A stretch of 64,000 nucleotides of DNA, taken from positions 190,713-254,712 of the forward strand of contig CAZALK010000005.1 in NCBI GenBank assembly GCA_964486045.1, given 5' to 3'. Every line of letters starts with the position of its first letter. Position 1 is the stretch's first letter. The DNA is from an uncultured archaeon (GTDB taxonomy: Archaea; Asgardarchaeota; Lokiarchaeia; Sigyniarchaeales; SOKP01). Shown here piece after piece: positions 53,996 to 64,000 of this stretch. The position numbers were made by a program, and so were the translations under genes. The notes beneath the pieces are model-generated. The model was not told the origin of the DNA, did no database searches, and saw only the letters and a program-made list of their open reading frames with translations.

Positions 53996-54093
53996 ATAAA
54001 TTCAACTTTGAAAACAAACTTATTGAATTCATGTATAATAAAGCAACGGGGAGTATTTCTTTAACTTCTTTTTATGAGTATAAAGAAATGATA

Positions 54094-54192
54094 CGCAGAC
54101 AGAGGGATTCGAACCCCCGAGTGCATTCGCACACTGGCTTTCTGGGAGTATTCCCGCTCCAAGCCAGCGCCGTACCGCTAGGCAATGTCTGC
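54094..54192 (-). tRNA. tRNA-Ser(GGA) with canonical 37/38 intron (54140-54156, 17 nt)
   Basis: GCAGACA/TGTCTGC acceptor stem, CTGGC-TTGGAGA-GCCAG after splicing, long variable arm, TTCGAAT, G73. BHB is ttgg AGC ggg..ctc ccag AAA. Confidence 0.92.
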
Positions 54193-54392
54193 AAAAAATC
54201 TGATCAGATTATTTCAGTATTATTTTCAATATAAGGATTCAAAATTTTAATATTTTATCTAATGAATTTTGAAAATAAAAATCGAAAATAATTTATTTTT
54301 ACTTGAATTTACTAAGTTACTTCAAATTGATGTAATTTACTGGAAATATACTACACCAGTAACTAAACAAATAATTTGGTGACAAATTACAT

Positions 54393-61608: not shown

Positions 61609-62511
61609 TTAGTTCTTCCGGTATTTTTGATCTACCTTATGGAAATCCTCAAGAGCTTTTGATTTCAGCCTATATTCTTCCTCTTTATCGAACTGCACTA
61701 ACTTTTTAGAAATTTCACTTGCACGTCTATATGTAATATAAGCTTTATGAAAGTCCTCATTCCTTAATGAATTACGTGCTTCTTCGACCAATTTTTCCCT
61801 CTCCTTTGATAATTCAGGAGTGCGCTTTGAAAATTCTCCTTTCTCTTTTAATGAATCAGCTATATCTGTTATATATAATTGTTCTGCTAATTCCCCCGCT
61901 TTGAAATAAAATTTTGCTGCTTTTTCGTGATCCTCAGTTTTTATGGCATTTTCAGCTGTGATATAGAATTCAGAGATTTTACTGTGTTCTCCATCTTCAA
62001 TTTTCTCTAATAAGTCTTGAGCTATTTTTCTTTCTTTCTTTCCGCCGCTCAGCATGAATTTTGTTATATTAATGATACTCTTCTTCAATTGTTCAGGTTG
62101 AAGGATATCAATTAATGGTTCTAAATGCTCGAGGTAAATGTCTTTCAATATAATTTCAAACTTCTCTTGAGGAATACCTAAGATGTTAAGACTTGGCATT
62201 TCTAATACTTCAGCAGCTTCTTTAAGAGAGGATCGGAATTTTTCTGTTTCATCTTCTTCATTTAATAACATCCCTATTATAACTCCTAAAGCTTTTCTGG
62301 CATTCTTTCCTTTAAATTTGTAATTAAATGAAAAAATATGATGATCTTTTAGCTTTAACAGATTATAATCGCTTTTTGAATGATCCAGATTTAATCTCAA
62401 GAAGAGATCATTTGAAATTTCAAAATCTGATTTTCCTTCTTTAAAATAATATCCTAATATTTGATAGTCGGAATCTGTGGGGAGTAATATTACAAAACAG
62501 CCACTTGGCAT
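61609..62511 (-). CDS. Hypothetical protein with longin/uDENN-like N-terminus and helical-repeat C-terminus
   Basis: Beta-beta-alpha-beta-beta-beta-alpha pattern, then two TPR/MIT-like repeats (EDHEKAAKFY / EDFHKAYITY). Confidence 0.5.
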   Translation of the reverse strand: MPSGCFVILLPTDSDYQILGYYFKEGKSDFEISNDLFLRLNLDHSKSDYNLLKLKDHHIFSFNYKFKGKNARKALGVIIGMLLNEEDETEKFRSSLKEAAEVLEMPSLNILGIPQEKFEIILKDIYLEHLEPLIDILQPEQLKKSIINITKFMLSGGKKERKIAQDLLEKIEDGEHSKISEFYITAENAIKTEDHEKAAKFYFKAGELAEQLYITDIADSLKEKGEFSKRTPELSKEREKLVEEARNSLRNEDFHKAYITYRRASEISKKLVQFDKEEEYRLKSKALEDFHKVDQKYRKN

Positions 62512-62580
62512 CTAAAATTAAACACCTCTTTAGTTATAAGTGAAAAATTCATTTGAATGAAAGTTTATTTAAATTTATTC

Positions 62581-63000
62581 TTACTCCTTGGTACCGATTA
62601 TTCTGTTAGTTTCTTCTCTTATCGATTGAATTATATTTAATAATTGGGCATAATATAGATTATCTGCAACTGTTTTTGAGGCTTGTTTTATTGTATCAAT
62701 AGCTTTCTTTTCTTCCTCAGCTATTACTTCAATTGATTTTTCGTCCCAAAGTTCTTTTATTTGGTTATTAAAATCATCACTTAAATCTTGGAGGTTCTTA
62801 CTTGATTGAATTCTGAATTGCTTCAACACTTCTACAATAAGCCTTATATTTTCTGTTATAGAAACCGTTTGTTCAGAAAAGTTTTGGGTCATATTAGTTA
62901 TTGAATCACTCATTTGGTTAATTTGAGCAATTGTTCCATCTAATGAGCCCATTATCTGATTTATCTTTTGGATCATCTCTTCCAATAATTGTTCTGCCAA
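62581..63000 (-). CDS. Coiled-coil protein
   Basis: Heptad pattern over the full 139 aa. Confidence 0.7.
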   Translation of the reverse strand: MAEQLLEEMIQKINQIMGSLDGTIAQINQMSDSITNMTQNFSEQTVSITENIRLIVEVLKQFRIQSSKNLQDLSDDFNNQIKELWDEKSIEVIAEEEKKAIDTIKQASKTVADNLYYAQLLNIIQSIREETNRIIGTKE

Positions 63001-63033
63001 TTTTTTTCACCAATTAATTATTAATAAATTACT

Positions 63034-63447
63034 TTATTCCATTATTTCCTCTTCTTTGAGGGAATCTTTAAGACTTTTTACAGAATCGATTGCCTCGGAT
63101 AATAGTAGATTCACAGTTTCTTGATTCAAAAGCCCCTCAGAGAGATTTGAAAAATCTTCAAGTTTTTTGATTAGGTTATTTAAGGCATCCAATCCTAATC
63201 CTTCTTGAATAACTTTCAATTCCTTTGTTGTTCCCTTGCCTATTTCTCTTACAGCATCAATATGCTTCGTTTGAGTTACATTAATCTCGCTTGAAAATTC
63301 CTCCAACTTCTCTGTAAGGCTTGAAATTTTTTCCTCAATATTTTCATTGAGAGCATTCAGTGATGTATTTAGGTCTTGTATTGATTTTCCTAATTGTGCT
63401 ATCCGCTTATAGATGTTCTGTAAAAGATCCGTTAACATCTCAGCCAT
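63034..63447 (-). CDS. Coiled-coil protein
   Basis: Heptad pattern; N-terminus similar to the downstream gene (MAE.L..L.Q.I). Confidence 0.7.
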   Translation of the reverse strand: MAEMLTDLLQNIYKRIAQLGKSIQDLNTSLNALNENIEEKISSLTEKLEEFSSEINVTQTKHIDAVREIGKGTTKELKVIQEGLGLDALNNLIKKLEDFSNLSEGLLNQETVNLLLSEAIDSVKSLKDSLKEEEIME

Positions 63448-63683: not shown

Positions 63684-63859
63684 GGGCCATTTGCTTAGCC
63701 TGGTTAACAAGGTTTTATATGCTTGGTCAACAAGCGCAGGTCTTATAAATGACCGTCGGACATACAAGAGTATAATTGTCCGAGAAAGTAAAAACCTGAG
63801 ATCCGGGGTTCAATTGATGATTGGGATTCCCTTCGTCAGAATCCACCCCCGATGGCCCA
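63684..63859 (+). tRNA. tRNA-Ile(UAU) with three non-canonical introns (63707-63731, 63749-63793, 63814-63844)
   Basis: Removing the three BHB/BHL introns gives a 75-nt cloverleaf: GGGCCAT TT GCTT AGCCTGGTTA AAGC G CAGGT CTTATAA ACCTG AGATC CGGGG TTCAAAC CCCCG ATGGCCC A, followed by a T-tract. Confidence 0.85.
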
Positions 63860-64000
63860 TTTTTTTTATTTTAAAAATTATTTTCGTGAAACATCAATTT
63901 CACGATGATTCATCAATATCAGAAAGATATTAAAAGAAAAAGGTCTAATTGACTAAATTTTAACTTTTAATTTTATTATTTTTTTAGCTTATTCTTATAT

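What the first reader, a model, noticed from the sequence alone, without database searches (positions are those of the whole stretch)
63684..63859. tRNA gene with three non-canonical introns (D-loop 21/22, anticodon 38/39, T-loop 58/59)
The 176-nt gene collapses to a perfect 75-nt cloverleaf after removing 25, 45 and 31 nt at motifs tggt-TAA/gtca-ACA, ttat-AAA/gtaa-AAA and gttc-AAT/gaat-CCA. Established: multi-intron tRNAs are best known from Thermoproteales. This shows the lineage has a permissive endonuclease and active intron gain, consistent with the mRNA introns.
Basis: partly seen in the sequence, partly recalled or inferred. Interest (0 to 1): 0.8.

Follow-up and report, generated by a model that had tools for sequence, protein, structure and literature searches.

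The report
Three-intron Asgard tRNA-Ile(UAU), self-guiding intron
This is a real isoleucine tRNA gene of an Asgard archaeon cut by three introns, which is already a known kind of gene, but its middle intron carries a deeply conserved stem plus ACA signal that probably steers an enzyme to modify the anticodon, and that I did not find described.

Summary
Confirmed. Removing 25, 45 and 31 nt at bulge-helix-bulge (BHB) motifs (21/22, 38/39, 58/59) gives a 75-nt tRNA-Ile(UAU), conserved in 34 of 36 genus relatives, many lacking the T-loop intron. The host is a Promethearchaeota (Asgard) archaeon with a two-subunit splicing endonuclease bearing the broad-specificity loop. Multi-intron Asgard tRNAs are published, so the headline is not new. 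(1) The anticodon is UAU, and TiaS, the usual archaeal AUA-decoding enzyme, was found in none of about 130 genomes from eleven Asgard families; the scan noted this before on other DNA. (2) The anticodon intron is old (it slid from 37/38) and keeps a G, 13 bases, then ACA, in ten families, built with two different stems, and restored by nested-intron removal in two. This geometry matches the tRNA T-arm/acceptor/CCA and H/ACA spacing, placing U34 where U55 sits. I infer the intron presents U34 to Cbf5 (or Pus10) for pseudouridylation, as eukaryotes do with Pus1, preventing AUG misreading (about 50%). No RNA data exist.

The parts
63684..63859 (+). pre-tRNA-Ile(UAU) gene, 176 nt, no encoded CCA, single copy
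63684..63706 (+). exon 1 (positions 1-21)
63707..63731 (+). intron 1, D-loop 21/22, 25 nt; central helix TGGT/GTCA, 4-bp inner helix; present in all 30 genus homologues
63732..63748 (+). exon 2 (positions 22-38)
63744..63746 (+). anticodon UAU (U34 at 63744)
63749..63793 (+). intron 2, anticodon loop 38/39, 45 nt; central helix TTAT/GTAA, relaxed motif; homologous to 37/38 introns of other genera and families
63739..63754 (+). predicted alternative hairpin: exon G29-C32 (63739-63742) paired with intron GACC (63751-63754), U33-U34 in the loop
   Evidence: prediction
63756..63783 (+). covarying intron stem, 63756-63762 with 63777-63783 (P1 or acceptor-stem-like)
63764..63766 (+). invariant unpaired ACA, 13 nt after the G at 63751 (candidate ACA box)
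63794..63813 (+). exon 3 (positions 39-58)
63814..63844 (+). intron 3, T-loop 58/59, 31 nt; full BHB (GTTC/GAAT, 6-bp inner, 3-bp outer helix); in 3 of 30 homologues
63845..63859 (+). exon 4 (positions 59-73, discriminator A)
63860..63867 (+). run of eight T directly after the gene, probable archaeal terminator (inference)

Best explanation
The gene encodes the cell's AUA-reading tRNA-Ile(UAU). SHOWN from sequence and comparison: three BHB introns, the splicing enzymes, absence of TiaS, and a conserved stem-plus-ACA element in the anticodon intron. INFERRED: the two-subunit EndA cuts each intron and RtcB joins the exons. Introns 1 and 3 are passengers. Intron 2 is functional: before it is spliced, its first bases pair back on exon G29-C32 and stack on a 7-8-bp stem followed by ACA. 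This copies the T-arm/acceptor-stem/CCA shape (13 nt from base 61 to CCA; 13 nt from the G to ACA) and the H/ACA 15 +/- 1 spacing, with U33/U34/A37 in the places of U54/U55/A58. Cbf5 with Nop10 and Gar1 (less likely Pus10) binds the ACA and turns U34, perhaps also U36, into pseudouridine. The RNA then refolds into the BHB and is spliced. Pseudouridine 34 blocks Elp3 modification and keeps the tRNA from reading AUG. Confidence by step: real spliced tRNA-Ile(UAU) 0.97; main AUA reader replacing TiaS/Ile2 0.9; element under selection for something beyond splicing 0.85; that function is pseudouridylation of U34 about 0.5.
For: Splicing; EndA pair with specific loop and RtcB. AUA is 3.3% of codons; TiaS in 0 of 61 relatives and in none of eleven Asgard families while 156 of 301 Asgard genomes have it; tblastn with four Asgard TiaS proteins gives best E 0.33; only initiator and elongator Met CAU genes found. 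Element: in 48 distinct introns the box reads A 48, C 47, A 48 while the next six bases have 1.5-1.7 bits of entropy, and the stem keeps pairing through several pair types per position (six of the 48 were found with an ACA-containing pattern). Same G-13-ACA spacing in verified tRNA-Ile(UAU) genes of families f2, f3, f8, f17, f18, f21, f25. In f8, f17, f18, f21, f25 the lower stem is instead formed with the exon D-arm strand and covaries with it, 7-8 of 8 pairs in all 12 genes. In f6 and f7, removing a nested 4-bp-helix BHB intron restores exactly 13 nt. Controls: 0 of 13 other tRNA genes tested. The alternative fold is the predicted minimum (-62.0 against -58.5 kcal/mol). Cbf5, Nop10, Gar1, Pus10 and Elp3 are encoded. 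Literature: Cbf5 modifies tRNA U55 without a guide and needs the 3' CCA, likened to ACA (PMC1616971); spacing rule and double modification of UVUN needing the ACA box (PMC7075261); U34 mutants of archaeal tRNA-Ile misread AUG (PMC3895270); the yeast intron gives pseudouridine 34/36 and prevents ncm5U34 (PMC11408192).
Against: No RNA, modification or cleavage data. The conserved G also forms the first inner pair of the BHB in 37/38 introns, so it is not independent evidence, and it served as an anchor. The exon-intron top helix is only 2 bp in some f2/f3 genes and has an A-C mismatch in many others. Three genes lack ACA (L133 in f4; L174, L175 in f2) though their genomes keep Cbf5. There is no upper stem or K-turn, which Haloferax guides need in vivo. 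Cbf5 alone did not modify a T-arm/acceptor mini-substrate, while Pus10 did without needing CCA. The most 5' unpaired U is preferred in a run of U, which could point to U33. The families are related, so they are not independent trials. The tRNA census of the genome is incomplete.
Confidence: 0.55

Rival explanations
1. All three introns are passengers. The ACA and stem are kept only for folding, splicing efficiency or order, and U34 is left unmodified or is handled by another enzyme or by the ribosome, as in Mycoplasma mobile.
For: M. mobile reads AUA with unmodified UAU (PMC3575796). The G can be explained by the BHB. Three genes lack the box. A preprint on Asgard tRNA introns reports no guide or modification role.
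Against: An unpaired ACA held at fixed spacing across ten families, with two unrelated stem designs and recovery after nested-intron removal, has no role in known BHB recognition. The conserved pairings compete with the splicing fold rather than help it.
Confidence: 0.25
2. The element does recruit a protein, but for another end: a different CCA/ACA-binding enzyme (PUA or THUMP domain), pseudouridine at U33 or U36 only, or a trans-acting guide on another RNA, like the box C/D guide in the tRNA-Trp intron.
For: 5'-most-U rule; Pus10 present; the tRNA-Trp intron guide acts in trans; several other PUA-like hits in these genomes.
Against: In five families half of the stem is exon, so the excised intron cannot form it alone. 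The ANA pattern (one ATA variant) fits the H/ACA box. Spacing points at U34.
Confidence: 0.17
3. The locus is a pseudogene or a chance parse, or it is spliced in another register to give a UAA (Leu) anticodon.
For: Standard finders miss it; the Atabeyarchaeia orthologue is published as 'possible pseudo'; 45-nt deletions further 5' would give UAA.
Against: Near-identical exons, synteny and kept motifs in 30 homologues; only the 38/39 register pairs 4 of 4; short variable loop and Ile-like body; no other AUA reader found.
Confidence: 0.03

Closest known systems
Multi-intron tRNA genes of Asgard archaea (Valentin-Alvarado 2024, PMC11291895; Goswami et al., bioRxiv 10.64898/2026.10.13.758758) and of Thermoproteales
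   Same: Several short BHB introns per gene at non-canonical D-, anticodon- and T-arm sites, missed by finders, with a two-subunit EndA; up to five per gene are reported.
   Different: Those papers focus on Atabeyarchaeia, Freyarchaeia and Jordiarchaeia; the preprint's text names neither Loki-type archaea nor tRNA-Ile(UAU), sliding, nesting or guides.
tRNA-Ile3(UAU) of Nanoarchaeum equitans, Ca. Korarchaeum cryptofilum and ARMAN-2/4/5 (PMC6000648, PMC3239211, bioRxiv 10.1101/614032)
   Same: UAU anticodon in place of Ile2(CAU); TiaS absent (stated for ARMAN); intron-bearing in Korarchaeum and ARMAN-2.
   Different: Described as rare (2 of 167 genomes); here it spans eleven Asgard families. Whether their introns hold the ACA element could not be tested.
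Eukaryotic pre-tRNA-Ile(UAU), with intron-dependent pseudouridine 34/36 by Pus1; Cyanidioschyzon merolae gene with three introns in D-, anticodon and T-arms (PMC9602550, PMC11408192)
   Same: Same anticodon, an anticodon-loop intron, and in C. merolae the same three-arm layout with the anticodon intron removed last.
   Different: The enzyme there is stand-alone Pus1 with no ACA signal. Most other Asgard families, including the large TiaS-positive ones, use Ile2(CAU), so convergence is at least as likely as shared descent.
Box C/D guide in the archaeal tRNA-Trp intron; H/ACA sRNA guiding pseudouridine 35 in Sulfolobales pre-tRNA-Tyr (PMC2651775); guide-free Cbf5 on tRNA U55 and a T-loop-like 23S rRNA site (PMC1616971, PMC6138745)
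   Same: An intron that directs modification of its own tRNA; Cbf5 acting on an anticodon loop or on T-arm-like hairpins.
   Different: The Trp guide is C/D and acts in trans; the Tyr guide is a separate RNA with a K-turn. An ACA-bearing Cbf5 substrate built into a tRNA intron was not found in the papers searched.

Membership tests
Archaeal BHB tRNA introns | 4-bp central helix with two 3-nt bulges at each intron | tested here: met
   introns 1 and 2 lack the outer exon helix (relaxed form), intron 3 is complete
Archaeal BHB tRNA introns | Removal gives a standard cloverleaf; empty-site alleles exist | tested here: met
Archaeal BHB tRNA introns | Broad-specificity EndA and RtcB encoded | tested here: met
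Archaeal BHB tRNA introns | Cleavage and ligation shown on RNA | not testable with these tools
   no RNA run listed
tRNA-Ile3(UAU) of TiaS-less archaea | UAU anticodon in a class I body with A73 | tested here: met
   nearest non-UAU tRNAs are Ile(GAU) and Ile2(CAU)
tRNA-Ile3(UAU) of TiaS-less archaea | TiaS (and TilS) absent | tested here: met
   TilS hits below cut-off
tRNA-Ile3(UAU) of TiaS-less archaea | No tRNA-Ile2(CAU) gene | tested here: inconclusive
   only two Met-type CAU genes found, but the census is incomplete
tRNA-Ile3(UAU) of TiaS-less archaea | Charged with Ile; reads AUA, not AUG | not testable with these tools
   needs biochemistry
Archaeal box H/ACA guide RNA | ANA box just 3' of a lower stem | tested here: met
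Archaeal box H/ACA guide RNA | Target U 15 +/- 1 from the box | tested here: met
   13 nt to the C32 pair, so U33 is 14 and U34 is 15; two genes are one longer; rule
Archaeal box H/ACA guide RNA | Two-sided pocket, upper stem and K-turn or K-loop | tested here: not met
   no room above the pocket and no conserved left-side pairing; so not filed as an H/ACA guide, only as working like one
Archaeal box H/ACA guide RNA | Cbf5-dependent pseudouridine formation | not testable with these tools
   proteins present; activity untested

The most novel reading that the evidence does not exclude
TiaS-less Asgard archaea solve AUA decoding with a self-guiding tRNA intron: the anticodon intron of pre-tRNA-Ile(UAU) folds with its exon into a T-arm/acceptor mimic ending in ACA, so that Cbf5 (or Pus10) makes pseudouridine 34 (perhaps also 36) before splicing. 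This would be an H/ACA-like element built into a tRNA intron, a selective reason for keeping that intron, and an archaeal parallel to the eukaryotic intron-dependent pseudouridine anticodon.
Probability: 0.5. Interest if true: 0.85.

Novelty: new variant of a known kind. Interest (0 to 1): 0.6.

Why it matters
How archaea with a UAU anticodon avoid reading AUG is an open question (PMC3895270), as is why tRNA introns persist. The element found here gives one testable answer to both, in a lineage with cultured members, using five-protein in vitro chemistry already established for Cbf5. It would also show that the eukaryotic way of reading AUA has a counterpart in about four in ten of the Asgard genomes sampled. 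In practice, gene finders miss or mark as pseudogenes the only AUA reader of these genomes. The three-intron layout alone matters little, since it is published for Asgard archaea.

Tried and rejected
No RNA holder listed for this stretch; the four runs laid were DNA contigs, so expression and splicing are untested. Copying of these introns from other tRNA introns of the genome: no similarity above shuffled controls, no other copy. Common origin of the 58/59 and 59/60 introns: identity 0.31-0.48, like shuffles. Box C/D or K-turn reading of intron 2: boxes do not fit (inspection). Canonical 37/38 register in this gene: 1 of 4 pairs. Origin of the UAU tRNA from Ile(GAU) or Ile2(CAU): unresolved (51 of 67 against 45-48 of 67 matches). 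First genome-wide intron parser timed out; the later one is incomplete and often prefers the equivalent 39/40 register. Loose anticodon patterns gave many chance hits; four of 20 fetched ACA-pattern hits were not tRNAs. The flanking-gene tree has unsupported deep nodes. The sigma-70 promoter scan is not informative for an archaeon. Marck and Grosjean 2003 was not held. Intron sequences of Korarchaeum, Nanoarchaeum and ARMAN were not obtainable. I did not type the joined mature sequence into genome searches, as it has no reference. Paper searches for Asgard with TiaS or agmatidine found nothing.

Full report
Observation. The six motifs are at 63701, 63726, 63743, 63788, 63808 and 63839. Cutting each bulge after its second base gives introns of 25, 45 and 31 nt and a 75-nt product that ARAGORN calls tRNA-Ile(tat); the unspliced gene is invisible to ARAGORN and Rfam. 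All three central helices pair 4 of 4, which shuffled introns do together once in 10,000 trials. Intron 3 is a complete BHB; introns 1 and 2 are relaxed forms without the outer exon helix.

Host and enzymes. The nearest named relative by RtcA is a Promethearchaeota archaeon (76% identity); the source is marine sediment. The genome has two EndA paralogues, one with the Tyr-His-Lys triad and the crenarchaeal loop including the Lys44 equivalent, one without the His, and RtcB. This loop is published for Asgard EndA (PMC5829648).

Relatives. 34 of 36 genus genomes hold the gene, in the same gene context, with near-identical exons and two to four introns. Introns 21/22 and 38/39 are in all 30 examined; 58/59 is in 3, 59/60 in 8, the variable loop in 13, and near 17/18 in 8. 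On a flanking-gene tree the three 58/59 carriers sit in a 100%-supported clade with three non-carriers, so loss or exchange is needed as well as gain. Introns at 45/46 fall into unrelated sequence groups, which suggests repeated insertion. Heavily interrupted tRNA genes and repeated gains are published for Asgard archaea, so the finding as written is a new member of a known kind.

The anticodon. UAU is rare in archaea, which normally read AUA with agmatidine-modified CAU made by TiaS. AUA is 3.3% of codons here. TiaS was not found in this genome, in 60 relatives, or in eleven families of a 301-genome Asgard sample, about 130 genomes, while 156 genomes have it. I verified tRNA-Ile(UAU) genes in families f1-f4, f6-f8, f17, f18, f21 and f25 and Ile2(CAU)-type genes in TiaS-positive families. 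f18 is Atabeyarchaeia by matching coordinates, and the published table lists Ile TAT there and Ile2 CAT in Freyarchaeia. Earlier notes of this scan reached the same TiaS result; I tested it independently. These families are kin, so the number of losses is not known.

Intron 2 is old and carries a signal. It is homologous across genera and families, and sits at 37/38 in some and 38/39 in others, so the non-canonical site here arose by a one-base slide and not by new gain. Inside it a 7-8-bp stem covaries, and just 3' of the stem an unpaired ACA is nearly invariant while the following bases vary freely. A G able to pair with C32 lies 13 nt before the ACA (14 in two genes). The same spacing occurs in f2, f3, f8, f17, f18, f21 and f25. 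In the last five of these the lower stem is made instead with the exon D-arm strand and tracks its sequence. In three genes of f6 and f7 an extra insert breaks the spacing, and removing it as a nested BHB intron restores exactly 13 nt. Among families reached by exon-only searches, seven of eight show the element; exceptions are L133, L174 and L175. Thirteen other tRNA genes do not show it.

Mechanism (inferred). In tRNA, 13 nt run from base 61 to CCA along the stacked T and acceptor stems, and U55 is the second loop base. Here 13 nt run from the G to ACA along the exon-intron helix and the stem, U34 is the second loop base, and U33/A37 are spaced like U54/A58. In H/ACA terms U34 is at 15. Cbf5 modifies U55 without a guide and needs CCA, which the authors liken to ACA; with Gar1 it modifies a T-loop-like rRNA hairpin in vivo; an ACA box allows two U of UVUN to be modified, and U34-A37 reads UAUA. 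ViennaRNA favours this fold over the splicing fold by 3.5 kcal/mol, so intron 2 should be spliced late, as in the three-intron C. merolae gene. Cbf5, Nop10, Gar1, Pus10 and Elp3 are present. In yeast the intron gives pseudouridine 34 and prevents Elp modification, and modified-U34 archaeal tRNA-Ile misreads AUG, which supplies the selection.

Limits. Nothing here is shown on RNA. The G doubles as a BHB pair; the top helix is weak in several genes; there is no K-turn; Cbf5 alone failed on a mini-substrate; U33 could be the target; three genes lack the box. I therefore do not file it as an H/ACA guide and give the pseudouridine reading about even odds.

Verdict. Observation confirmed; interpretation partly supported. 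Three introns: known kind. UAU without TiaS: known strategy, wider spread than published. The conserved stem-ACA element in intron 2 is the part worth following. Novelty: new variant of a known kind; interest 0.6.

Noticed in passing
G000 tRNA genes genome-wide; genus loci L001-L030: Non-canonical tRNA introns cluster at about 30 nt (roughly 24 of 38 parsed are 28-33 nt); every lineage-variable intron of this tRNA is 27-32 nt, while the two fixed ones have drifted. Earlier scan notes report the same regularity.
   Followed up: partly
L169, L171, L172 (families f6, f7): Nested BHB introns (25, 25, 32 nt) inside the anticodon intron of tRNA-Ile(UAU).
   Followed up: partly
window 54093-54193 (-): tRNA-Ser(GGA) with a 17-nt intron in the anticodon stem region, mis-called by ARAGORN.
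   Followed up: partly
window 61609-63447 (-): Three genes divergent from the tRNA (137, 139 and 300 aa) with no convincing NCBIfam match, syntenic with it across the family.
   Followed up: no
G000:C1:655580-655653: tRNA-Ile(GAU) has an unusual acceptor start GGGAGAG, shared with tRNA-Ile(UAU) of some f2 genomes.
   Followed up: no
L080 (G263, TiaS-positive family f26): A weak, intron-less tRNA-like gene with UAU anticodon in a genome that has TiaS; may be mobile or degenerate.
   Followed up: no
G000:C1:583602 and C23:44547: Initiator and elongator Met tRNA introns (49 and 44 nt) contain TGATGA or CTGA boxes; possible C/D-like guides.
   Followed up: no
G071, G082, G079, G090 cbf5 genes: cbf5 is split near profile position 70 in families f18 and f21, consistent with the known cbf5 mRNA intron.
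   Followed up: no
G000:C1:527549-528757: cbf5 lies directly behind tRNA-Lys(UUU).
   Followed up: no
loci L002-L025, downstream of the tRNA: A 230-aa unknown gene and a gene that looks like SepSecS (from memory, untested) follow the tRNA in relatives; the window's contig ends before them.
   Followed up: no
window 63884-63905: Conserved inverted repeat (TCGTGAAA...TTTCACG) just downstream of the tRNA in many homologues; possible terminator or binding site.
   Followed up: no
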